64,000 bases of DNA from Escherichia coli (GTDB lineage: Bacteria; Pseudomonadota; Gammaproteobacteria; Enterobacterales; Enterobacteriaceae), in NCBI RefSeq assembly GCF_022846255.1, contig NZ_AP025682.1. The stretch is one strand, 5' to 3'. The notes under the pieces were generated by a model, which did not search any database, had not been told where the DNA came from, and saw only the letters and a program-made list of their open reading frames with translations. The translations under genes were made by a program, and so were the position numbers. Positions 1 to 63,762 of this stretch are shown here, in pieces. Within the stretch, counting starts at the first letter, position 1. Every line of letters starts with the position of its first letter.

Positions 1-325
1 AGGTCGCCAGCGCCAGGTTGATAAGCGCAAAGGCATAGACAATGGGTAGCAACAACCAGCCACGATTGCGAGAAGCCACAATGGTCATTACCGTACAGAT
101 CATCAAACTGACCAATGAACCAACGTTCAGCAGGCTGAGGTTTTGTCCGCTATCACCGTCGGGCAGGATGCGGGCTTCCAGAGCGATTGCGTGGCAGACC
201 AGCGCGATGACCGCAGAAATAATAGCCATGCGCCGCCAGCCGCCGTTTTTTTGCAGCAGACCGGGAACAATCAGCGCAAGACTGACGGAGTAGGCGACAA
301 GCGCGAGCAGAGCAAAAACGGGCAT
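1..325 (-). CDS. ypjD: Inner-membrane protein YpjD, N-terminal part only (gene runs off the window start); an alternative upstream ATG is at 400
   Basis: Hand translation of the minus strand from 400 downward gives MQRLEQRSPDAILLLFLIAQTVDITMPVFALLALVAYSVSLALIVPG..., hydrophobic and membrane-like; divergent from ffh as in K-12. Absent from the ORF track because it has no in-window stop. Confidence 0.7.
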   Translation of the reverse strand, partial: MPVFALLALVAYSVSLALIVPGLLQKNGGWRRMAIISAVIALVCHAIALEARILPDGDSGQNLSLLNVGSLVSLMICTVMTIVASRNRGWLLLPIVYAFALINLALAT

Positions 326-491
326 AGTAATGTCGACAGTTTGAGCAATAAGAAAGAGAAGCAGTATAGCGTCAGGTGAACGCTGCTCCAACCGTTGCAT
401 AACAACAAAGACGCCTTCATGTTATACTGCGGCAAAATACTGATGATGTGTCGCGATTGCGGCCAACCGTTTCCACCCCAGGCGAGAGACA

Positions 492-1853
492 ATGTTTGAT
501 AATTTAACCGATCGTTTGTCGCGCACGCTGCGCAATATCAGTGGCCGTGGACGCCTCACTGAAGACAACGTAAAAGATACGCTGCGCGAAGTGCGCATGG
601 CGCTGCTGGAGGCGGACGTCGCTCTGCCGGTAGTGCGTGAGTTTATCAATCGCGTAAAAGAGAAAGCGGTTGGTCATGAAGTTAATAAGAGCCTGACGCC
701 GGGGCAGGAGTTCGTCAAAATTGTCCGTAACGAACTGGTTGCGGCGATGGGCGAAGAGAACCAGACCCTGAACCTGGCTGCGCAACCGCCTGCGGTCGTG
801 CTGATGGCGGGCCTGCAAGGTGCCGGTAAAACAACCAGCGTTGGTAAACTCGGTAAGTTCCTGCGCGAGAAGCACAAGAAGAAAGTGCTGGTGGTTTCTG
901 CCGACGTCTATCGCCCGGCGGCAATCAAACAGCTTGAGACGCTGGCAGAGCAGGTGAGCGTTGATTTCTTCCCTTCTGATGTTGGTCAGAAGCCGGTAGA
1001 TATCGTTAACGCGGCGCTGAAAGAAGCCAAACTGAAATTCTACGACGTGCTGCTGGTGGATACTGCCGGTCGTCTGCACGTTGACGAAGCGATGATGGAC
1101 GAGATCAAACAAGTCCATGCGTCGATTAATCCGGTTGAAACCCTGTTTGTGGTCGATGCCATGACCGGTCAGGATGCGGCCAATACGGCAAAAGCATTCA
1201 ATGAAGCGTTACCGCTTACCGGTGTAGTGTTGACCAAAGTGGACGGCGATGCCCGCGGCGGTGCGGCGCTCTCTATTCGTCACATCACTGGCAAACCGAT
1301 CAAGTTCCTCGGTGTTGGCGAGAAAACCGAGGCGCTGGAGCCATTCCATCCGGACCGTATTGCCTCCCGTATTCTCGGCATGGGCGACGTACTGTCACTG
1401 ATCGAAGATATCGAAAGCAAGGTTGACCGCGCGCAGGCAGAGAAATTAGCCAGCAAGCTGAAAAAAGGCGACGGCTTCGATCTCAACGACTTTCTTGAGC
1501 AGCTGCGCCAGATGAAAAATATGGGCGGCATGGCTAGCCTGATGGGCAAGCTGCCGGGCATGGGGCAGATCCCGGATAACGTCAAGTCACAGATGGACGA
1601 TAAAGTGCTGGTGCGTATGGAAGCCATCATCAACTCGATGACGATGAAAGAGCGCGCTAAGCCAGAAATCATCAAAGGTTCGCGTAAGCGTCGTATCGCT
1701 GCCGGTTGCGGTATGCAGGTGCAGGACGTTAACCGTCTTCTGAAACAGTTCGACGACATGCAGCGCATGATGAAGAAAATGAAGAAGGGCGGGATGGCGA
1801 AGATGATGAGAAGCATGAAAGGGATGATGCCGCCGGGATTTCCTGGTCGCTAA
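492..1853 (+). CDS. ffh: Signal recognition particle protein Ffh (453 aa)
   Basis: ORF 492..1853; GTPase motifs GLQGAGKTT and DTAGR, Met-rich C-terminal M domain; length matches Ffh. Confidence 0.97.
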   Translation: MFDNLTDRLSRTLRNISGRGRLTEDNVKDTLREVRMALLEADVALPVVREFINRVKEKAVGHEVNKSLTPGQEFVKIVRNELVAAMGEENQTLNLAAQPPAVVLMAGLQGAGKTTSVGKLGKFLREKHKKKVLVVSADVYRPAAIKQLETLAEQVSVDFFPSDVGQKPVDIVNAALKEAKLKFYDVLLVDTAGRLHVDEAMMDEIKQVHASINPVETLFVVDAMTGQDAANTAKAFNEALPLTGVVLTKVDGDARGGAALSIRHITGKPIKFLGVGEKTEALEPFHPDRIASRILGMGDVLSLIEDIESKVDRAQAEKLASKLKKGDGFDLNDFLEQLRQMKNMGGMASLMGKLPGMGQIPDNVKSQMDDKVLVRMEAIINSMTMKERAKPEIIKGSRKRRIAAGCGMQVQDVNRLLKQFDDMQRMMKKMKKGGMAKMMRSMKGMMPPGFPGR

Positions 1854-48784: not shown

Positions 48785-48809
48785 AAAATACCGTTCTCTT
48801 TATAAAGTA

Positions 48810-48845
48810 AAACCCCCGAACTGGTAAGGAACGGGGGTTTTCAGT
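48810..48845 (+). terminator. Terminator after acpS
   Basis: cccccg ... cggggg inverted repeat followed by TTTT. Confidence 0.55.
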
Positions 48846-49204
48846 TTACAACTTTAATTTTGTGCAGCACACGATTCCAACGGAAATAATTATGGATCAA
48901 TTTCGTTGACCTGTACAAGCAACTTGCAATCTCTGACATAAAAAACGCGAGCCTTTACGAAGAAATCGACATTGATGAAAAGATTAACGTGACCGCTTTT
49001 TGATAAGTACATTAAAATCGGTTTCATTATTGGCAATTTTGCTGTGCTTTACACCATGCCACTGAATTCCCCCATTGAAACGAGTGGTGTCGTCAAAGCT
49101 CTGGTGTGGAGTGCAGCACTCGATTCCAATAACTCGCACGTTCAGTTTTGGGGAGATGTAAGGGCTAATCTGAACGGCTGCATTCCTTGTTTAAGGAAAA
49201 ACGA

Positions 49205-49478: not shown

Positions 49479-49748
<270 letters not shown>

Positions 49749-49954
49749 TTACCGTTAAATCATTTTAAAAATCAGTAAGTTGTATCGAGTTTGTATGCTT
49801 TACTGTCATTAACTTACTGTATGTTGATCCAGTGTATTTAACCTTGATAAACTCAGTCCAGTAACACAAAGCCGCAACACATTGCATTTTGTCCCGTAGA
49901 AAAGACTTGTATGTGTGTGCTTGTTTTCTGCGCCTACGCAGATAAGGATTGAGA

Positions 49955-51352
49955 ATGCCGCGCACTGTAACACATAATCCGGATAGCCCCAATAATGACG
50001 ATGTTTTAGCCGCATCTGAAAAATGGGACGCCTGTAAACCCCCCTATACCAGCGCACACATGAAAATCTGTGTTGCTGCCGCCAAAATCATCCTCGCTGC
50101 TTCCGGCGTGGCTCGCCGTTCCAAATACGAAAAAGAGAACTATCTCCGTATCGATTTCAGCAAAGCCGGTAAGGTTACATTTTACGCCGAGTTTCCAAAA
50201 AAGATGGGCCTCAAAGGTAAAAAGCTCGGCGAGTGGCCGGAGCTCGCTATCCAGCTGGCGCGCGAAAAAGCGCTAGGTATGGCTGACGGTGGCCTGCGGG
50301 CAGAGTCCGTACATGCAGCGCTGGAAATGTACCGGGATGACCTCAAAGCCAAAGTCGCCCGGCAGAAGCTGAGCCCGGACAGTTTCACAACCTACGGGGT
50401 GCGTATCGACCGGATTAAAGCAACGTTCGGCGAGCGCGAGGTGTTCAGCGACGTAACATACAATCGGCTGGTGGAAGTGCTGGACGAGTGGATCGCTACT
50501 CGCTCGAACAATAACGCCCTGGAGTTGTTTGCCGAGCTCCGTCGGTTCTGGAAGTTCTGCGCACCTACTCTTTGCAACGGCCGCAATGTTGCCGCCAGTC
50601 TGCCAGATGATTATGTTTCCTCCCGCGTACAGAAACCTACCCCCACACGGCTTTTTACCGATATTGAATCAATCGCCCGACTCTGGCTCAATGTTGCTGC
50701 CTGCACCTCTGTACACCAGAAGAATGCTGTTCGCTTCATGATCATCACTGGTGTTCGTCCGATTAATGTCCATAACCTGCGCTGGGACTACGTTCACGAG
50801 GAGGCTGGTGAAATTGTTTATCCGGAAGGGGTTATCGGCATGCGAGGGGCTATGAAAACACAAAAGGCTTTCCGCCTGCCGATAACCCCTGAGATCCGGC
50901 GGATTATCGACGAGCAGAAAGCCTGGCGTGATTCAGTTCCTGAGTGCAACAGGGATTATGTATTTTTGCAGCCACGTGATCCAATGCAGCCATTTTCAAA
51001 ACGATCACTGGATAAGCTGGTGAAAACATACAGCCCGGACGGGGCTGTAAAAGGAATAAAACATGATGGGACTGTTAAAGGGAAAGACGGTGCATTTAAT
51101 ACGATGTGCCGTAAATTCCTTAAGAGCAATGTTATTGCCTTGATGAAGGAAAGAGGCTATTCCCGCTCAGACCGAAGGGAAATCAGCCTCCTTTGCCTTC
51201 ACCACTCCAGCAAGTCAGATGACCCGATGGCAGAACATTACGACTTTTCTGATGAGATTTTACAGGAAGAGATTGCGTTGAAGCGCGAAGCTTTCGAGGC
51301 TCACGAGCGGAGCATACTTGCGCAGGTGGCATTGCTACGGCGGCGAGGTTAA
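49955..51352 (+). CDS. Phage-type tyrosine integrase (start uncertain: TTG 49949, ATG 49955 with AAGGA RBS, or ATG 50060)
   Basis: C-terminal catalytic-domain pattern ending ...LHHSSKSDDPMAEHYDF with the tyrosine nucleophile; arm-binding-like N-terminus; position at the element boundary. Confidence 0.85.
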   Translation: MPRTVTHNPDSPNNDDVLAASEKWDACKPPYTSAHMKICVAAAKIILAASGVARRSKYEKENYLRIDFSKAGKVTFYAEFPKKMGLKGKKLGEWPELAIQLAREKALGMADGGLRAESVHAALEMYRDDLKAKVARQKLSPDSFTTYGVRIDRIKATFGEREVFSDVTYNRLVEVLDEWIATRSNNNALELFAELRRFWKFCAPTLCNGRNVAASLPDDYVSSRVQKPTPTRLFTDIESIARLWLNVAACTSVHQKNAVRFMIITGVRPINVHNLRWDYVHEEAGEIVYPEGVIGMRGAMKTQKAFRLPITPEIRRIIDEQKAWRDSVPECNRDYVFLQPRDPMQPFSKRSLDKLVKTYSPDGAVKGIKHDGTVKGKDGAFNTMCRKFLKSNVIALMKERGYSRSDRREISLLCLHHSSKSDDPMAEHYDFSDEILQEEIALKREAFEAHERSILAQVALLRRRG

Positions 51353-51549
51353 TACTGGCTGCGACATTTTTGAATAAAAGCGTCGATATTTCGGCGCTCA
51401 TAACGAACTACTTTTGCACTGAAACGAATTGGTGCCAGGATAGCCCGATGACGATGCTTAATATTCCACTCACATAGCGTTTTCTGTGTAATACCTAACT
51501 TTTGGCATACTTCATCCGGGGTGAGTAAATCGTCGGGTTTCTCGCTCAT
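51349..51549 (-). CDS. AlpA/excisionase-family small DNA-binding protein (66 aa)
   Basis: MSEKPDDLLTPDEVCQKLGITQKTLCEWNIK HTH resembling the AlpA/Xis family; convergent with and overlapping the integrase 3-prime end. Confidence 0.7.
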   Translation of the reverse strand: MSEKPDDLLTPDEVCQKLGITQKTLCEWNIKHRHRAILAPIRFSAKVVRYERRNIDAFIQKCRSQY

Positions 51550-52940
51550 GCTATACCTCTCTTTTTCATGGCATCGAGCAGGATGTCCTGCACTGTTCGT
51601 TTTGAGTTGCGCCGCTCCATCACCATTTCATCCATAGTGTCGGCAGCAATAATGTGGTGAATAAATACCGGACGATTGTGTCCGGCCTGTATCTGCCTGG
51701 TGGGGCCGATACGTTCAATAATTTGCTGATATTGCTCCAGGTCCCACCAGTGTGAGAAAAATACCAGTATATTTCCGCCGTCCTGCATGTTCAGGCCGTG
51801 GCCCGCGCTGGCTGGGTGTGCAAAGAGAACAGGAATCTTTCCGGAATTCCAGTCGCGCAGTGTCTGTGGATCCTGGTCGAGGTGACGACCGCGAGGGAAT
51901 GCTTTAAGCAAGCGTTCAAGATCGTGTTTCCAGTGATAAGCAACCAGCACAGGTGCGCCAGCTGCTTCGGTCAGTATGCTGTCCAGCGCCTGTAGTTTGG
52001 TGTCATGCAGTTCTGACCAACTTCCGGTGTCATCTGTGTATACTGCGCCGCTGGCGATTTGCAGACACTTCAGTGTCTTTGCCGCGGCGTTCGGTGCTTC
52101 GATGCCTTCGCCATTCAGCTCGAGGAACATTTCCTTTTCCATTTCACGATACTGCTGACGGGCCTTCGGTGGCATATCCACGCGGATTACGTTATGGATG
52201 GGGTCTTTGATATCGAACCAGTCGGCCGCATCCAGCGAGAGGGTTACATCGGCTAACGCTCGCTGTATTTCACCCTGTGAGTGAGCAAAAGGCTCCAGTT
52301 TGGTCCAGCTCTGCCCCGGAAACTGTATCGAGTTGAACCAGCGTGAGGTAAACGCGCCGTAAGTGCGCCCGAGACGTTGCCCCTGGTCCACAAACCACGA
52401 TTGTCCCCACAAATCTACCAGGCCGTTCGGTGCTGGCGTACCGGTGAGATTTATCCAGCGCCGGACATACTTATGCGCCACTTTGCCCAGCGCCGCCGCG
52501 CGCTTACCACCACCGCGCAGCCGGAAGGATTTTAGCCGGGTGCTTTCATCTGGAATGACAGTACCGAACGGCCATCGTTCTCCCAATTCTTCAATCAGCC
52601 AGACAAGGTTATCGTAGTTGATGGTGAACACGCTTGCGTTGCTGTTCGTCAGCGCCATAGAGCGCGCTTTGGCATTACCAATAATTGGCTGCACCTCGAT
52701 ATTGCGCAAATGTCCCCACTTCAGTGCTTCATCCGGCCATGTGCTGGCAGCCACGCGCAGCGGCGCGAGGACCAGTGCGGGGCATGTTTCTGCCCCTGCC
52801 ATAAAGAGATCTTCCAGCGCAGTGAGCGTTGCCACGGTTTTACCCATTCCCATCCCCGCCCAGATGTTGCCGCGCAGGGTTTCGGTTTCGTGGTTGATAA
52901 TGAGATCTTGGTAGGGGCGAGGTATATATTTTGGGGGCAT
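51546..52940 (-). CDS. SNF2/DEAD-like superfamily-2 helicase (464 aa)
   Basis: Walker A GMGMGKT, DExx-like VIPDESTRL, helicase C-terminal domain; AGGAG RBS 9 nt upstream of the ATG at 52940. Confidence 0.8.
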   Translation of the reverse strand: MPPKYIPRPYQDLIINHETETLRGNIWAGMGMGKTVATLTALEDLFMAGAETCPALVLAPLRVAASTWPDEALKWGHLRNIEVQPIIGNAKARSMALTNSNASVFTINYDNLVWLIEELGERWPFGTVIPDESTRLKSFRLRGGGKRAAALGKVAHKYVRRWINLTGTPAPNGLVDLWGQSWFVDQGQRLGRTYGAFTSRWFNSIQFPGQSWTKLEPFAHSQGEIQRALADVTLSLDAADWFDIKDPIHNVIRVDMPPKARQQYREMEKEMFLELNGEGIEAPNAAAKTLKCLQIASGAVYTDDTGSWSELHDTKLQALDSILTEAAGAPVLVAYHWKHDLERLLKAFPRGRHLDQDPQTLRDWNSGKIPVLFAHPASAGHGLNMQDGGNILVFFSHWWDLEQYQQIIERIGPTRQIQAGHNRPVFIHHIIAADTMDEMVMERRNSKRTVQDILLDAMKKRGIA

Positions 52941-53002: not shown

Positions 53003-53920
53003 TTATAATAGTGCTGTTACTATTGCATCTTTAAAAATATTTTCTTCTTCATTTATTAAAGGTGATGACAGATGAATAATTACTTCTTTTCCTGTCAATA
53101 CTATTTGCTCGACTTGAAATCCTGCGTTGTGTAGTCTTTGGCGTAACTTTTCTAGTGCTGATTTTGATATACTAAATCCTTCACTCCTTATAGTATAACT
53201 GGCAACTCCATTTTTAATAATATCTACAGAGTTGTCAATTTCCTGCTGCGAGTAATTTTTCGGTGAGTCGAAAAATCTGGATTTTGTCGTTGCTGTTGCC
53301 CTAAGAGATATCAATAATGATTTGATATCTTTAATCTCAGATGCCAGATACTCAGTTTCTGATACTTCTTTCTGGTCTAGTTGTGCAACTTTGAAAGTGC
53401 CAAAATGTTTGAGGAATGTTGTGTATTCAGGATCAGTTACTGACTTTAAATATGTTTCTTTTATCTTGCTCGCAAGTCTTTCTTTGAATAAATTGATTGA
53501 TTGGTATCTTAAATCCGAAGGGTACTCTAAATGTTCAATTGATGAAATGTCAAAGCTATAAGGAGTGCGCTCGTCCTTAATAATTACGGTCGGTTTGTCA
53601 AATGCGAGACGCATTCCTAATTCAAACATTACATTAGCGTTTCGAGCACTTATATCGCAAACAACTATGGGGTTTTCATAAAGATTTTGAACAATTCGTT
53701 TTTGTATTACTGCAACATCATCATCTGAACTTACCAAATTTGCCTTGAATCCGGCATCATTTGATGCTTCACAAATAATGTCATGAACATTTCTCCAATG
53801 TCCAGTGGGATAACCTTCTATGTCCGCAATTGGCATAATAATGCCGCATATATGAGGTGGCATATTTTTGTTGTCTTTTACATCATCTTGGTTTATTTCT
53901 TTCGTTTGTTGCTTAGCCAT
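53003..53920 (-). CDS. Hypothetical cargo protein (305 aa) with a Rossmann-like N-terminal domain of NDT/TIR-fold appearance and an unknown C-terminal domain
   Basis: N-terminal pattern ICGIIMPIAD ... IVVCDISARNANVMFELGMRLAFDKPTVII (beta-strand, then conserved Glu in an FELG context, as in nucleoside 2-deoxyribosyltransferase/TIR-like folds); gene is conspicuously AT-rich; own terminator. Confidence 0.5.
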   Translation of the reverse strand: MAKQQTKEINQDDVKDNKNMPPHICGIIMPIADIEGYPTGHWRNVHDIICEASNDAGFKANLVSSDDDVAVIQKRIVQNLYENPIVVCDISARNANVMFELGMRLAFDKPTVIIKDERTPYSFDISSIEHLEYPSDLRYQSINLFKERLASKIKETYLKSVTDPEYTTFLKHFGTFKVAQLDQKEVSETEYLASEIKDIKSLLISLRATATTKSRFFDSPKNYSQQEIDNSVDIIKNGVASYTIRSEGFSISKSALEKLRQRLHNAGFQVEQIVLTGKEVIIHLSSPLINEEENIFKDAIVTALL

Positions 53921-54414: not shown

Positions 54415-54602
54415 CGTCCACCTCCTTACGCTTTTCGCGCATGTTCTGCATCAGACAAAAATCAAACCGACGTTCGCTTTGGCCCAGACCTGCATCGCCC
54501 GGTCGTACCCGCTGGACTGTTCAAGGCGCAAAGCCTCCCGCGCAGTCCGGTAATAAAGCGGACTGTCCCGGTATTTAAATGACATAGGGTTTTTATTCCC
54601 AA

Positions 54603-54625
54603 ATAAAAAACCCCGCAATGCAGGG
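54603..54625 (-). terminator. Rho-independent terminator after the TIR-like gene
   Basis: Minus-strand RNA cccugc auu gcgggg (one G-U pair) followed by UUUUUU. Confidence 0.6.
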
Positions 54626-54649
54626 TTGTAATCAACAATAAGGGGGTAA

Positions 54650-55411
54650 TTACGAGGAAGCGTTAGCTATTTGAGCTTGTGTAAATTCGAAACCAGAATT
54701 TTGTAACCGTTGCACTAGACGAGGAACTGTTTCACGTACATGGTCGTTGAAATTCAGATACAAAATCCCGTTAGCATCAGAAGGCTGTTCTAGGTGCTGT
54801 TTCTGAAGGATTGCTACATTGCTGCGCCCTAAGGACGAAAGAAGCATACCCATCTCGAGTACAACGTTCTGTCTTGCGCGGGGTTGGATTTCTGCTTCAC
54901 CGGCGCGCTTTGAGTATCCCATATCATCAGGTGTCAAAAGAACAATCCCGAAACGGGTAGCAGTTTGTCCTTGCCCAATTTCACGTTCAAGCTCTTCAAT
55001 AATGGTGAGTCCAGTCCCTCCCGTATTCTGCAAAATGAAATGGTCTGGTAATCCAAGTTTATGAAGGATTAGCTCAAGTTGTTCCTTTGCAGTATGGTCA
55101 TGGCCGTGAACAATGAATATCTTTTTGGGAAGCTCAGATGGCTGTTCTACGGCTAGTGGTGTTGCCGTGGGGGGCGTTCCTAAATGGGACATTATTGCAG
55201 TTTCAACATTGGGACGTTCTTGAGGGTTACCTTGAAACTGAATGGTCCGGGTGGTGTAAAGGTTAACAATTACGCCATTCGTTAAACGATAGCAGTCATA
55301 AGTCTCACGCTGTTCGTGGGAAAAATTGGTGAACCCACACTCCCTCAAAAAGTCAGGAAAAGATTCTCTCGGGTATGGATAGGTGATCGGCATTTCAGTT
55401 AGTTCCTGCAT
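54650..55411 (-). CDS. TIR-like nucleotide-binding domain protein (253 aa), Cap12-like TIR-like family with an unknown about 80-aa N-terminal domain
   Basis: KIFIVHGHDHTAKEQLELILHKLGL ... FGIVLLTPDDMGY ... RARQNVVLEMGMLLSSLGRSNVAIL, matching my recollection of the 'predicted nucleotide-binding protein containing TIR-like domain' family (PF10137); AAGGA RBS; own terminator. Confidence 0.65.
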   Translation of the reverse strand: MQELTEMPITYPYPRESFPDFLRECGFTNFSHEQRETYDCYRLTNGVIVNLYTTRTIQFQGNPQERPNVETAIMSHLGTPPTATPLAVEQPSELPKKIFIVHGHDHTAKEQLELILHKLGLPDHFILQNTGGTGLTIIEELEREIGQGQTATRFGIVLLTPDDMGYSKRAGEAEIQPRARQNVVLEMGMLLSSLGRSNVAILQKQHLEQPSDANGILYLNFNDHVRETVPRLVQRLQNSGFEFTQAQIANASS

Positions 55412-57627: not shown

Positions 57628-59130
57628 TTAATATGATAAATAATCATACAAGCATAAAAGTCGCCTGTATTGGGTATCAATTTTATGCCCTGGTTTTGTT
57701 AAATAATCTCGTAGTTGTTTCAATGAAATAGTATCGTTTAGTACGCAATACATAATCGTGTTAGCAACTTTATACTCTTTCGTTTCTTTTAGTATTTCAT
57801 CAATAGACACAGCCTCACTCTTACATGTTTTAATTCGAGAAAGGTTACCAATGATTTTATCTAGCTGCCGTTTTCTGTATGTCTCGGTATTTTCTAGTTC
57901 AGGGCAGATAGAACTAAAAGCGTATATTGGAAAGTGTTCGCTATTAGCTATGGTTTGCTTATTCAGTAATGCGATAAGCTGAGAGTTTGCTTCGTCAACT
58001 ATTTTAAAATAGTTCTGTATCATTTCAGATTTTGTTTGATAAACATATTGTACGGTTCTTTCTGAACCAACAGCAATGACCATTTCATCATTGCGAAGTT
58101 CATCTAAATTTTCTGTAATTTTAACCTTTATCTCACCACCACTTTTGATGGTACTCCAAACTTTTTGAACCTTTCTTATGTCCATTGCGGATACTGGCAA
58201 AACTAGTCCCGAGATGGCATCATATACAGCTTTGTAATTGTTTGTTTTTATTTTGTTTATTCTTATGATAGACATGCCTTCTATATCTATGTCATGCTCC
58301 GTAATTTCAGTTGACATGCTGTCTTTTTCGTATTCAACCAAAAGAAAATTATCTTTTATCCTTTTTGCAAGTTCGGTATTTAAGTCAACGTATGAGAATA
58401 TGGTTTTTAATAAGTACTTAATGTTTTTATCGCTAATACTATACCCTATAAATATGATAGGGTTGTGTATGAATATTGAGAGTAATTGAGCGCGAATTAA
58501 CTCATATTTATTGTCGAAGTTTGCGTAGTCTTCACCTGTGATAATTATGTTGTTAGGATCACTAACACAGCCATGTATTTTGTAAACTGAACCGTATGGG
58601 TTACTTAAAAGAATGTTATTACCAATCAGTGGGTTAAATTCGAAGATGTTCTCTACGAGTTGGTCGTAGTTTGTTGTAATGATGGAGCCTATGTTTTTTC
58701 TTGTTTTTATTAAGCTGTTTATTTCCTCCATCATTGACTCTTTTATCTTTAGGTCTTTAAGTATTGAAGTTAAATAAATTTTGAATCGACTTAGTTTTTT
58801 TCCTTTTTTCATGTGCTCATAGAAAACATCATTGATGTCTTTGAACTTACCGTTACGATCTTCTGCCAGCTTTTTATTAAAAATATCTTCAAGTTTTGTA
58901 GCTAAGATATCATATCGATAGTCGTCACCTTCTAGGCTTTCAGCTTTCAAATCGTAGTAAAACTCAGCATTACCGGTTAGTTCCATTGCGACACTCAAAA
59001 GAAGACCATCCCAGCTAAATGAGTTTTCTAGATACCGTAGGCTAAATCCTGTTCCAATGAATAGAACAGGGTGGTTTTTATAGTGACTTACAAACTCTTG
59101 GATTTCCATACCGATTCTCAAAGTTGACAC
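57628..59130 (-). CDS. SIR2-like (sirtuin-fold, SIR2_2-type) protein, 500 aa, with an about 250-aa C-terminal domain of unknown type
   Basis: Motifs PVLFIGTGFS, SIITTNYD, YKIHGC and IIFIGYSISD, in the order seen in defence-associated SIR2 domains; GTG start at 59130 with AGAGG RBS (first ATG at 59109); roughly 30% GC by hand count versus about 50% in flanking polymerase; own terminator. Confidence 0.75.
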   Translation of the reverse strand: MSTLRIGMEIQEFVSHYKNHPVLFIGTGFSLRYLENSFSWDGLLLSVAMELTGNAEFYYDLKAESLEGDDYRYDILATKLEDIFNKKLAEDRNGKFKDINDVFYEHMKKGKKLSRFKIYLTSILKDLKIKESMMEEINSLIKTRKNIGSIITTNYDQLVENIFEFNPLIGNNILLSNPYGSVYKIHGCVSDPNNIIITGEDYANFDNKYELIRAQLLSIFIHNPIIFIGYSISDKNIKYLLKTIFSYVDLNTELAKRIKDNFLLVEYEKDSMSTEITEHDIDIEGMSIIRINKIKTNNYKAVYDAISGLVLPVSAMDIRKVQKVWSTIKSGGEIKVKITENLDELRNDEMVIAVGSERTVQYVYQTKSEMIQNYFKIVDEANSQLIALLNKQTIANSEHFPIYAFSSICPELENTETYRKRQLDKIIGNLSRIKTCKSEAVSIDEILKETKEYKVANTIMYCVLNDTISLKQLRDYLTKPGHKIDTQYRRLLCLYDYLSY

Positions 59131-62253: not shown

Positions 62254-62448
62254 TCAGTTGGTATTGTGCGTACGTGGTACCACAAGGTTGAAGCGGACAC
62301 GCCAGTGCGTTGCAATGGTATGCAGGAAAGCACCACATCCAGGGCAGTGCTCATAACATTCGTTGATTTGGTATCGTTTTGGCTTTGGTGTCAGAAGCTG
62401 TGTTTGGCAAGCAGGGCATTCACCTTTGAGCGGTTTATACGTTTTCAC
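62254..62448 (-). CDS. Small Cys-rich phage protein (64 aa), possible zinc finger
   Basis: CPACQ ... CYEHCPGCG; first gene of the leftward operon. Confidence 0.45.
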   Translation of the reverse strand: MKTYKPLKGECPACQTQLLTPKPKRYQINECYEHCPGCGAFLHTIATHWRVRFNLVVPRTHNTN

Positions 62449-62717: not shown

Positions 62718-62746
62718 GTAAAGAAAAGCCCGCTTAGGAAGCGGGC
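62718..62746 (-). terminator. Terminator after the CI-like repressor gene
   Basis: Minus-strand gcccgcuu ccu aagcgggc followed by UUUUCUUU. Confidence 0.6.
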
Positions 62747-62770: not shown

Positions 62771-63463
62771 TCAGAGCAGAACGGAGTACCAAAATACTTG
62801 GCCTATAATCCTGATTTTATTAGCCTCTTGATTAAAATACTCTTCGTCTGCGTATTCATCCCTATTGAAAGAGCGTATCCGGAGTCCGCTTGGGAGACGG
62901 TACAATAGTTTGACACGAAGTAATCCGTCTTGGTCTATGGCGTACATTTGACCATCTTTTACACCTGTTTTTGATGTATCTATGCCGACGACAGCGCCAT
63001 CCGGTAATACCGGTTCCATGCTGTTGCCGTGGATGCTGACACAAGCCGCACAATTTACGTCAACACCTGCTTTGCGCAACGTTGAACGGGCGAATCTTAA
63101 CTTACATCCCATTCGATCTATATCAACATAAGTACCATTACCGGCAGATAGCTCAATTTCCTGATAGAACGGTATTTCCACTTCATCATCCTCTAATGGC
63201 GTTGATGAGTCCCATACAGAAAACCCTCCCTCAACTTGTGCATTAGAATGTATTTCTTTGGTATCGCTTGTTTTGCCTGAAAGTAGCCACTCTGGAGAAA
63301 CGTTCAATGCTTCGGCCAGATTTATAAGATTTTTCCCGTTAGGTGTGGTGTTTCCGGATTCCCATTGTGAAATCGTGGCTTTAGTTAGACCAATACGTTT
63401 AGCAAGCGCATCCTGCGTTAGGTGGACATTGCGACGAGCCTCGCGAATACGATCATTAATCAT
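62771..63463 (-). CDS. CI-like repressor (HTH_XRE plus S24 LexA-like peptidase domain, 230 aa)
   Basis: N-terminal HTH LTQDALAKRIGLTKATISQWESG; C-terminal S24-like region with GNSMEP (Ser nucleophile) and a downstream Lys; GAGG RBS. Confidence 0.8.
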   Translation of the reverse strand: MINDRIREARRNVHLTQDALAKRIGLTKATISQWESGNTTPNGKNLINLAEALNVSPEWLLSGKTSDTKEIHSNAQVEGGFSVWDSSTPLEDDEVEIPFYQEIELSAGNGTYVDIDRMGCKLRFARSTLRKAGVDVNCAACVSIHGNSMEPVLPDGAVVGIDTSKTGVKDGQMYAIDQDGLLRVKLLYRLPSGLRIRSFNRDEYADEEYFNQEANKIRIIGQVFWYSVLL

Positions 63464-63576: not shown

Positions 63577-63762
63577 ATGAAAAAAGCAGAAGCAATTGAG
63601 CTTGCAGGAAGTAAAGCGAAACTAGCGAGACTATTGAAGGTTTCCAAAGGAGCCGTATCTCAATGGGGGGAGGAAATCCCAGAGTTAAGAGCTCTTCAAC
63701 TTGAAAAGATTTTGGAGCAAAAAAATGTAGTCAAACAAAAAGGCTTAACCCATGTCCGATAG
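63577..63762 (+). CDS. Cro/YdaS-like small HTH protein (61 aa)
   Basis: LAGSKAKLARLLKVSKGAVSQW HTH; divergent from the CI-like gene. Confidence 0.7.
   Translation: MKKAEAIELAGSKAKLARLLKVSKGAVSQWGEEIPELRALQLEKILEQKNVVKQKGLTHVR

What the first reader, a model, noticed from the sequence alone, without database searches (positions are those of the whole stretch)
51349..51552. Convergent, overlapping integrase and excisionase-like genes, with the helicase coupled to the excisionase-like gene
The integrase stop (51350..51352) and the AlpA-like stop (51349..51351) overlap, and the AlpA-like start overlaps the helicase stop. The excisionase-like gene is therefore the last cistron of the long leftward replication operon and is transcribed towards int, an arrangement that could couple excision to replication-operon expression.
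Basis: seen in the sequence. Interest (0 to 1): 0.2.

Follow-up and report, generated by a model that had tools for sequence, protein, structure and literature searches.

The report
Prophage integrase and excisionase, tail-to-tail
An E. coli prophage inserted in the yfhL gene carries its integrase gene and a small excisionase-type gene pointing at each other and sharing their stop codons, a compact layout already characterised in the Shiga-toxin phage Phi24B, so it is ordinary.

Summary
The integrase gene (49955-51352, +) and a 66-aa gene (51349-51549, -) share a TTAA that holds both stop codons. An ATGA joins the SNF2 helicase stop to the 66-aa start, behind a GAGAGG ribosome-binding site.

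The window is E. coli chromosome with a ~42 kb lambda-like prophage inserted in yfhL. The 66-aa protein is under strong purifying selection. It is an HTH_17 (MerR-type winged-helix) protein, not Pfam Phage_AlpA. Its model resembles solved excisionases (RdfS, Pukovnik Xis, GIsul2 Xis).

The gene stays with this integrase and the yfhL site in over 80 related prophages, whatever gene lies upstream (helicase, DnaQ-like exonuclease, small ORFs). The helicase link is therefore incidental, and int-xis is a portable integration module.

The same module is annotated integrase/excisionase in the mitomycin-inducible Serratia phage OS31. The same geometry was characterised in Stx phage Phi24B: inverted int with its own promoter, and xis overlapping its 3' end as last gene of the repressor-controlled leftward operon.

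Unproven: that the leftward genes form one uninterrupted operon. Terminator-like hairpins and inserted defence-type genes interrupt it.

Verdict: new member of a known kind, low interest.

The parts
49692..49709 (.). attL core: 18-bp identity TTCACACATATCACAATT, inside yfhL codons 11-16. The second copy, at attR, lies outside the window.
   Evidence: Exact repeat between the two prophage ends in L001 (920 and 43156). It is homologous to the 23-bp att repeat reported for phage OS31 (PMC7556043).
49710..49954 (.). Phage-derived P' arm. It contains a surrogate yfhL 5' end (49710-49739, MSLLITKR instead of native MALLITKK) and the integrase upstream regulatory region. The best promoter-like match is TTGATC-18-TAAACT at 49824-49853 (+).
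   Evidence: attL/attR alignment. Conserved sequence blocks across divergent relatives. Relaxed promoter scan. The promoter is inferred, not shown.
49862..49869 (+). Candidate integrase arm-type site P'1 (TAACACAA).
   Evidence: The motif YAACACA(A/T) recurs in both att arms. The same paired layout is present in OS31. Inferred.
49875..49882 (+). Candidate integrase arm-type site P'2 (CAACACAT), about 13-14 nt after P'1.
   Evidence: Inferred.
49968..49975 (+). Candidate arm-type site P'3 (TAACACAT), inside integrase codons 5-7.
   Evidence: Inferred.
49955..51352 (+). Tyrosine integrase gene (465 aa), transcribed away from attL into the prophage.
   Evidence: Pfam Phage_integrase 30.4 bits against a cut-off of 27.1. 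phrog_1 integrase E = 1.4e-26. RefSeq CDS. Start codon chosen from the alignment of relatives. 76.5% identical to the OS31 integrase.
51349..51352 (.). TTAA palindrome holding both stop codons (int TAA 51350-52; xis TAA on the minus strand 51351-49).
   Evidence: A 4-nt stop overlap is kept in 69 of 79 related loci, with TTAA at most junctions read. One relative, L083, has CTAG.
51349..51549 (-). 66-aa HTH_17 winged-helix gene, the probable excisionase (recombination directionality factor).
   Evidence: HTH_17 across the full profile, E = 1.1e-5; 18 of 18 relatives match. phrog_4745, phrog_66 and phrog_1553. The AF2 model matches BldC, RdfS, Pukovnik Xis and GIsul2 Xis. Purifying selection. 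Co-inherited with int.
51556..51561 (-). Shine-Dalgarno GAGAGG for the 66-aa gene, inside the last helicase codons.
   Evidence: A GAGG core is present in all contexts examined.
51546..51549 (-). ATGA overlap of the helicase stop (TGA) and the 66-aa start (ATG).
   Evidence: Present in 54 helicase-type loci and in L083 and L084.
51546..52940 (-). SNF2-family helicase gene (464 aa), the gene upstream of xis in this phage lineage only.
   Evidence: Pfam SNF2-rel_dom. phrog_62 E = 4e-156.
51029..51049 (-). Stable hairpin followed by UGUUUUC, 300 nt downstream of the xis stop and antisense to int. Possibly a lineage-specific stop for the leftward transcript.
   Evidence: dG -13.4 kcal/mol, z = -5.5. 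The stem decays without compensation in more distant relatives, so function is doubtful.
54609..54627 (-). Terminator-like hairpin plus U-run after the TIR-domain gene, inside the leftward gene string and upstream of xis.
   Evidence: dG -11.3 kcal/mol, z = -2.8.
62728..62746 (-). Strong terminator-like hairpin just after the cI-like repressor gene. The early-left promoter should lie between it and 62170.
   Evidence: dG -14.1 kcal/mol, z = -5.0.
62771..63463 (-). CI-like repressor gene (HTH plus an S24 peptidase-type C-terminal region). It would keep the leftward genes, xis included, silent in the lysogen.
   Evidence: NCBIfam DicA/RstR-type HTH and an S24-type match. RefSeq annotation and lambda-like layout.
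63577..63762 (+). Cro/DicC-like gene that starts the rightward operon.

Best explanation
The region is the integration/excision module of a ~42 kb lambda-like temperate phage sitting in the E. coli yfhL gene.

Proposed mechanism:
- The integrase gene reads inward from attL, from its own promoter in the phage P' arm. That arm also holds candidate integrase arm-type sites, so autoregulation is possible.
- The 66-aa gene encodes a MerR-type winged-helix (HTH_17) recombination directionality factor. It is the last gene of the leftward, CI-repressed early gene string.
- In the lysogen, integrase can be made without Xis, which keeps the prophage stable.
- After repressor loss, leftward transcription reaches xis. 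Xis is translated from its own Shine-Dalgarno, immediately after or coupled to the preceding gene. Together with integrase it recombines attL with attR.
- The shared TTAA stop is genome compaction at the junction of two converging transcription units.

Status of each step:
- Shown here: gene anatomy, protein family and fold, selection on the ORF, att core, and conservation of the module.
- Inferred: excisionase activity, promoter positions, arm sites, and control by CI.
For: - Anatomy.
- Prophage boundaries and att core in yfhL.
- Lambda-like layout with cI, cro, Q, lysis and structural genes.
- Family: HTH_17 in 18 of 18 members.
- Fold: the best PDB matches include RdfS excisionase 8dgl, Pukovnik Xis 4j2n, GIsul2 excisionase 8c3t and BldC.
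- The ORF is coding: pN 0.02-0.12 against pS 0.7-0.9, and a GAGG ribosome-binding site is conserved in all contexts.
- xis travels with this int and the yfhL site behind different upstream genes.
- The homologous pair in Serratia phage OS31 is annotated excisionase/integrase. That phage integrates in the homologous ferredoxin gene and was induced with mitomycin C.
- The same geometry was tested experimentally in Phi24B: int 236-1405 (+) and xis 1389-1571 (-) as last gene of the pL operon, with pInt independent of CI and Xis required for excision.
- An int promoter overlapping attL, with autoregulation, is a known paradigm (PMC2951348).
- Candidate arm sites are conserved between the E. coli phage and OS31.
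Against: - There is no experimental evidence for excision activity of this protein family.
- The window protein scores 26.0 bits on HTH_17, one bit under Pfam's cut-off.
- It has no NCBIfam hit, no Phage_AlpA hit, and no BLASTP similarity to TorI.
- Foldseek E-values are modest (0.009-0.2), and the same fold occurs in pure transcription factors such as BldC, SoxR and RacA.
- One Salmonella homologue (L085) is not next to an integrase of this family.
- Terminator-like hairpins lie between the presumed early-left promoter and xis, and no antiterminator for the leftward unit was identified.
- The integrase promoter could not be located with confidence.
Confidence: 0.8

Rival explanations
1. The 66-aa protein is only a transcription regulator. 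It would act like AlpA acting on intA, like BldC, or like D29 Gp36, switching the integrase or other phage genes on or off rather than acting architecturally in the excisive intasome.
For: The best structural matches include BldC, and other MerR-type regulators appear lower in the list. RefSeq names the protein 'helix-turn-helix transcriptional regulator'. RDF-like proteins are known to moonlight or act purely as regulators: D29 Gp36 (PMC12266134) and AlpA (discussed in PMC3064807).
Against: There is no Phage_AlpA match. The gene is co-inherited with one integrase family and one att site across otherwise unrelated phage backbones, which is the signature of a cognate RDF. No other excisionase candidate lies near int in this window. 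A dual role is not excluded.
Confidence: 0.12
2. The tail-to-tail overlap is itself a regulatory device. With no room for a terminator between the genes, the int transcript runs antisense into xis and the helicase gene and damps leaky Xis in the lysogen. After induction, the early-left transcript runs antisense through int and limits integrase and re-integration. This would add to the best explanation, not replace it.
For: There is zero intergenic space, with shared stop codons. No conserved intrinsic terminator lies within 300 nt on either side. The overlap is kept in 69 of 79 relatives, and as CTAG in L083. Phi24B has an even longer 17-nt overlap.
Against: Nine relatives tolerate a ~525-bp insert carrying another gene between xis and int, and one tolerates a 174-nt gap, so the overlap is dispensable. 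In this lineage a stable hairpin at 51049-51029 could stop the leftward transcript after about 300 nt. No transcript data exist. The Phi24B study describes no antisense effect in the passages read.
Confidence: 0.2
3. The 66-aa protein is an accessory factor of the SNF2 helicase or the replication module, translationally coupled to it for stoichiometry, and unrelated to excision.
For: An ATGA overlap with the helicase stop. The best PHROG hit, phrog_4745, is filed under 'DNA, RNA and nucleotide metabolism'.
Against: In phages with the same xis and int, the upstream gene is a DnaQ-like exonuclease or a small ORF and there is no helicase. The gene tracks int, not the helicase.
Confidence: 0.03

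Closest known systems
Stx2 phage Phi24B (vB_EcoP_24B) int/xis region (Fogg et al. 2011, PMC3064807; GenBank HM208303)
   Same: The integrase is inverted relative to lambda and reads away from the att site from its own promoter. The small winged-helix xis lies adjacent to the integrase 3' end, convergent and overlapping it (17 nt there, 4 nt here). xis is the last gene of the leftward, CI-controlled early operon.
   Different: There is no detectable sequence relationship. Neither the window int nor xis hits Phi24B by tblastn against 50,697 phage records. Phi24B Xis is distantly Phage_AlpA-like, whereas this protein is HTH_17. The att site, the phage backbone and the early-left gene content all differ. 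Function is demonstrated there and only inferred here.
Serratia phage vB_SspS_OS31 integrase (p01) and putative excisionase (p02) (Bujak et al. 2020, PMC7556043; MT843276)
   Same: True homologues: int 76.5% and xis about 69% identical. It has the same 4-nt convergent overlap and the same target, the yfhL-type 2x[4Fe-4S] ferredoxin gene, with a homologous att core. xis is the last gene of the leftward operon after cI. The same arm-type repeat layout is present.
   Different: OS31 is a lambdoid siphovirus in which xis follows a 3'-5' exoribonuclease gene. Here the phage has myovirus-type structural genes, and the leftward string holds DNA polymerase A, an Enc34-type SSB, a VRR-NUC nuclease and an SNF2 helicase. 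The excisionase role in OS31 is also only an annotation.
KplE1 (CPS-53) IntS/TorI and relatives HK620, Sf6, CUS-3 (Panis et al. 2010, PMC2951348)
   Same: The integrase gene reads inward from attL, so its promoter overlaps the recombination region. Transcription of int and of the RDF is uncoupled, and excision hinges on RDF expression.
   Different: In KplE1, torI sits at the other prophage end, in the same direction as intS (xis-attP-int in the circle). It is not adjacent and not convergent. TorI shows no BLASTP similarity to the 66-aa protein. KplE1 targets a tRNA gene.
Phage lambda int-xis in the pL operon
   Same: xis is a distal gene of the long leftward early operon controlled by CI, and cI and cro have the same layout. 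This comparison rests on established knowledge, summarised in PMC2951348.
   Different: In lambda, int follows xis on the same strand and is co-transcribed from pL, with pI and sib retroregulation. Here int is on the opposite strand and cannot be part of the leftward transcript.
Mycobacteriophage L5 Gp36 / Pukovnik Xis (HTH_17-type excisionases)
   Same: The fold class is the same: 4j2n is among the top structural matches. The gene also lies near the distal end of a long early gene string that contains DNA polymerase I.
   Different: In L5, int (gene 33) and xis (gene 36) are on the same strand and are separated by attP and other genes. It is therefore not a convergent precedent. I checked this because I had remembered it otherwise.

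Membership tests
Pfam HTH_17 (PF12728; MerR-type HTH shared by many excisionases) | Match to the profile at or above the curated gathering score | tested here: inconclusive
   The window protein scores 26.0 bits against a cut-off of 27, E = 1.1e-5, covering profile positions 1-51 of 51. All 18 family members match, best E = 6.5e-7. Several homologues carry a precomputed PF12728 assignment.
Pfam Phage_AlpA (PF05930; AlpA, TorI, phi80 Xis) | Match to the Phage_AlpA profile | tested here: not met
   No hit at E <= 1 in any of 18 family members. There is no BLASTP alignment to TorI, whose sequence was verified as PDB 1z4h.
Recombination directionality factor (excisionase) | Small winged-helix/MerR-like DNA-binding fold | tested here: met
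   AF2 model with mean pLDDT 78 and topology H-H-strand-H. Foldseek against the PDB returns BldC, RdfS excisionase, Pukovnik Xis and GIsul2 excisionase at TM 0.6-0.79.
Recombination directionality factor (excisionase) | Encoded next to, and co-inherited with, its cognate integrase and att site | tested here: met
   Adjacent to the same integrase family beside yfhL in 79 of 79 related loci with enough sequence: 69 with a 4-nt overlap and 10 with an insert or gap. The upstream genes differ. One exception is L085.
Recombination directionality factor (excisionase) | Stimulates attL x attR recombination and inhibits attP x attB | not testable with these tools
   This needs an excision assay. The only indirect support is that OS31, which carries the homologous pair, was induced with mitomycin C and its DNA recovered.
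Recombination directionality factor (excisionase) | Specific binding sites, usually direct repeats, in an att arm | not tested
   Conserved blocks exist in the P' arm. I could assign candidate sites only to the integrase (YAACACA repeats), not to Xis.
Phi24B-type recombination module | int inverted relative to lambda and reading away from att; xis adjacent to the int 3' end and convergent | tested here: met
   Window anatomy compared with the HM208303 annotation.
Phi24B-type recombination module | int transcribed from its own promoter independently of CI; xis under CI control through the early-left promoter | not testable with these tools
   Gene order and strand make a separate int promoter necessary, because no co-directional gene lies upstream in either the integrated or the circular form. 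Only weak promoter-like matches were found, and no expression data exist.
KplE1-type autoregulated integrase | Integrase-binding sites overlapping the integrase promoter in attL | tested here: inconclusive
   Three YAACACA(A/T) repeats lie between 49862 and 49975, around the int start, and are conserved in OS31. Neither the promoter nor binding is shown.
Tyrosine recombinase (Pfam Phage_integrase PF00589) | Profile match above the gathering score | tested here: met
   30.4 bits against 27.1, covering residues 248-361 only. phrog_1 integrase E = 1.4e-26. No PDB sequence relative at E <= 0.01. The catalytic residues were not verified.

The most novel reading that the evidence does not exclude
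Because the two genes converge with no intergenic space and no conserved terminator, their transcripts must overlap. This might form a two-way antisense or transcriptional-interference switch. The int transcript would silence leaky xis in lysogens. The induced early-left transcript would shut down int after excision. The unusually high synonymous divergence confined to the xis ORF could be a trace of selection at the RNA level or of allele swapping.
Probability: 0.15. Interest if true: 0.35.

Novelty: new member of a known kind. Interest (0 to 1): 0.12.

Why it matters
It matters little beyond annotation.
- The 66-aa gene, which RefSeq calls a generic HTH regulator, can be labelled a probable excisionase of a yfhL-targeting integration module. 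The module is present in about 3% of complete E. coli genomes (160 of 5426) and in other Enterobacteriaceae, including Stx2b prophages reported at yfhL.
- If the Phi24B logic holds, integrase would be made in lysogens while Xis stays under repressor control. That bears on lysogen stability and on multiple lysogeny at yfhL.
- The att core and candidate arm sites give a defined substrate set for anyone who wants to test this integrase as a tool.

Tried and rejected
- Integrase start. I rejected TTG 49949 and ATG 50060. The alignment of relatives supports ATG 49955, and 50060 is ATT in L081. The best consensus promoter hit (49949-49978) therefore lies inside the coding region and was discarded.
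- A conserved terminator downstream of xis. The hairpin at 51049-51029 is stable here but decays without compensation in relatives.
- Sequence relation to known proteins. There is none to TorI. PDB chains gave no significant match: phmmer best E = 0.2, and the family profile only BldC at E = 0.03. NCBIfam gave no hit and PADLOC gave no hit.
- Phage L5 as a convergent int/xis precedent. The annotation shows both genes on the same strand, so I rejected it.
- KplE1 as an adjacent convergent precedent. torI lies at the far prophage end, so I rejected it.
- GenBank 'phage' records ON470579, ON470582 and ON470588 as evidence about the phage ends. ON470579 is a mis-bounded prophage extract: it contains host genes tadA, yfhB and yfhH, stops exactly at the helicase stop, and lacks int and xis. 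In all three records the match ends exactly at a record terminus.
- RNA features. Rfam found only ohsC outside the prophage, and there is no tRNA.
- I did not run the large representative-protein search or a metagenome scan, because the answer did not depend on them.
Full report
**What is in the sequence**

The region holds three genes.
- A tyrosine-integrase ORF lies on the plus strand and ends with TAA at 51350-51352.
- A 66-aa ORF lies on the minus strand at 51349-51549.
- A 464-aa SNF2 helicase ORF lies on the minus strand at 51546-52940.

The two converging ORFs share the palindrome TTAA at 51349-51352, which supplies both stop codons. The helicase TGA and the 66-aa ATG overlap as ATGA at 51546-51549. 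RefSeq annotates the same three genes in an identical prophage of strain WP3-W18-ESBL-08.

The integrase start is better placed at ATG 49955, which follows AAGGA, than at the TTG six bases upstream. The next ATG (50060) is not conserved in relatives.

**Context**

The window is E. coli chromosome (rnc-era-recO-pdxJ-acpS, ohsC/shoB, yfhL), followed by a prophage of about 42 kb.

The prophage ends share an 18-bp core, TTCACACATATCACAATT. This is window 49692-49709, inside yfhL codons 11-16. The phage carries a replacement 5' end for yfhL, so the 86-codon frame stays open.

The layout is lambda-like:
- attL, then int reading rightward.
- A leftward string: xis, SNF2 helicase, a 305-aa gene, VRR-NUC nuclease, a 64-aa gene, a TIR-domain gene, family-A DNA polymerase, a SIR2-like gene, Enc34-type SSB, DUF2800, and two more ORFs.
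- A leftward CI-like repressor.
- A rightward string: cro-like gene, primase, Q antiterminator, lysis genes and myovirus-type structural genes.

The int-xis-helicase stretch occurs in 160 of 5426 complete E. coli genomes, always on the chromosome. yfhL is already listed as a prophage site, including for Stx2b prophages.

**Is the 66-aa ORF a real gene, and what is it?**

It is a real gene.
- Against relatives, non-synonymous differences are 0.02-0.12 per site while synonymous sites are near saturation.
- A GAGG ribosome-binding site sits 6-8 nt before the ATG in every genomic context examined.

Its family is HTH_17.
- All 18 members of its narrow enterobacterial family match Pfam HTH_17 over the whole profile.
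- None matches Phage_AlpA.
- The window protein itself is one bit below the HTH_17 cut-off.
- PHROG hits include two excisionase families.

Its predicted fold is that of known excisionases. An AlphaFold model (mean pLDDT 78) best matches BldC, the RdfS excisionase, Pukovnik Xis and the GIsul2 excisionase, at TM 0.6-0.79. There is no BLASTP similarity to TorI.

**The module and its neighbours**

I examined 83 related loci: 80 from IMG/VR, two assembly contigs and Serratia phage OS31.
- In 79 loci with enough sequence, the same integrase family lies beside a yfhL homologue.
- In 69 of these it is convergent with exactly a 4-nt stop overlap.
- In nine, a ~525-bp insert sits between the two genes; in the locus inspected (L062) it carries a 129-aa secreted-protein gene. 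One locus has a 174-nt gap.
- A relative with about 71% protein identity has CTAG instead of TTAA. Both stops change and both preceding codons stay synonymous.

The upstream gene varies. It is the helicase with ATGA in 54 loci and in L083. In most other phages it is a DnaQ-like 3'-5' exonuclease ending one base before the ATG. In one phage it is a 106-aa ORF, again with ATGA.

So xis is always the last gene of the leftward early string and belongs with int and the att site. It does not belong with the helicase. One Salmonella homologue lies elsewhere, without this integrase.

**Known precedents**

*Serratia phage OS31.* This is the only record among 50,697 deposited phages with homologues of both proteins (int 76.5%, xis about 69% identity).
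- Its authors annotated them as integrase and putative excisionase.
- They reported a 23-bp att repeat in the host two-cluster ferredoxin gene.
- They induced the phage with mitomycin C.

*Stx phage Phi24B.* The geometry was characterised experimentally here.
- int (236-1405, +) is inverted relative to lambda and has its own promoter, which is not repressed by CI.
- xis (1389-1571, -) overlaps the int 3' end by 17 nt and is the last gene of the pL operon.
- Xis is required for excision.

*KplE1.* It shares only two features: the integrase promoter overlaps attL, and int transcription is uncoupled from the RDF. Its torI gene lies at the opposite prophage end.

*Mycobacteriophage L5.* I had remembered it as a convergent case. 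It has int and xis on the same strand.

**Mechanism proposed**

Integrase must have its own promoter, because no co-directional gene precedes it in either the integrated or the circular form. The best candidate is a weak match at 49824-49853 inside a conserved block.

Repeats of YAACACA(A/T) lie at 49862, 49875 and 49968, and in the other att arm. The same layout is present in OS31. They are likely integrase arm-type sites and would allow autoregulation. This is inferred.

Xis would be made only when the leftward unit is derepressed, and would then direct attL x attR recombination.

That the leftward genes form one uninterrupted operon is not shown.
- Terminator-like hairpins lie after cI (62746-62728, -14.1 kcal/mol) and after the TIR gene (54627-54609, -11.3 kcal/mol).
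- A weaker one lies at 62222-62203 (-9.8 kcal/mol).
- Two low-GC inserts carry defence-type genes.

Antitermination or internal promoters may therefore be needed, as in lambda.

**What remains open**

With no intergenic space and no conserved terminator, the two transcripts must overlap, so antisense effects are possible. However, relatives tolerate an insert between the genes.

One oddity is unexplained. Among close relatives the xis ORF is far more diverged at synonymous sites (pS 0.69-0.93) than the integrase (pS 0.29-0.54) and, where a helicase gene is present, the helicase (pS 0.42-0.55). Third-position GC ranges from 0.39 to 0.69 for proteins that are 94% identical. Mosaic exchange of xis alleles is the simplest reading.

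**Verdict**

It is a new member of a known kind, and interest is low.

Noticed in passing
window 49692-49800; L001 43156-43210: The phage integrates inside the 5' coding part of yfhL and brings its own replacement. It supplies 10 codons (MSLLITKR instead of MALLITKK) plus upstream sequence, so the 86-aa ferredoxin frame stays intact. The native 5' end is left as a fragment at attR. A survey paper lists yfhL among genes 'disrupted' by prophages (PMC3603311).
   Followed up: partly
window 51349-51549 compared with L050, L044 and L054: The xis ORF is only 77-81% identical in DNA where the adjoining int and helicase ends are 92-97% identical. Nearly every third codon position differs although the proteins are 94% identical. 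Third-position GC is 0.39 here against 0.64-0.69 in those relatives. This is probably allele mosaicism, but it is unexplained.
   Followed up: partly
window 54650-55411, 57628-59130 and 53003-53920 (minus strand): Defence-type single genes sit inside the leftward early gene string. One is a CAP12/Pycsar-type TIR protein (PADLOC PDC-S35, E = 1e-108). One is a SIR2-like protein (PDC-S25, E = 4e-158, about 32% GC). One is a 305-aa low-GC protein with a weak TIR-effector hit. In strain WP3-W18-ESBL-08 the SIR2 slot holds a different gene on the opposite strand.
   Followed up: partly
L002 (GenBank ON470579); also ON470582 and ON470588: These records are deposited as complete phage genomes. ON470579 looks like a mis-bounded prophage extract: it includes host genes (tadA, yfhB, yfhH), ends exactly at the helicase stop codon, and so lacks xis, int and attL. 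In ON470582 and ON470588 the match likewise ends exactly at a record terminus, but their annotation was not inspected.
   Followed up: yes
L062 4247-4636, and about eight similar loci: In some relatives a ~525-bp insert lies between xis and int. In L062 it carries a 129-aa gene with a signal-peptide-like N-terminus, on the integrase strand, and starts a few bases after the shared TTAA.
   Followed up: no
window 54415-54600 (minus strand): Between the TIR-gene terminator and the next gene, RefSeq marks a frameshifted ANR-family regulator pseudogene.
   Followed up: no
E. coli genome search: There are 163 matching places in 160 genomes, so up to three genomes carry two copies of the int-xis-helicase region. 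This could be double lysogeny, which would be of interest given the Phi24B precedent for CI-independent integrase.
   Followed up: no
L085 5001-5195 (Salmonella contig): A 64-aa homologue of the xis-like protein, with a different N-terminus, sits in another island. It lies near a P4-type integrase 4 kb away and near an HTH/M78-peptidase pair. It is not next to a yfhL-type integrase.
   Followed up: no
window 62254-62448 (minus strand): A 64-aa ORF with two CxxC pairs (zinc-ribbon-like) lies between the cI terminator and the first leftward gene, and is followed by a weak terminator-like hairpin. The same interval holds different genes in strain WP3-W18-ESBL-08. Its role, for example as an early regulator, is unknown.
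   Followed up: no
window 48804-48881 (minus strand): The ohsC antitoxin sRNA of the shoB/ohsC type I toxin-antitoxin pair lies just outside the prophage (Rfam, 89 bits).
   Followed up: yes
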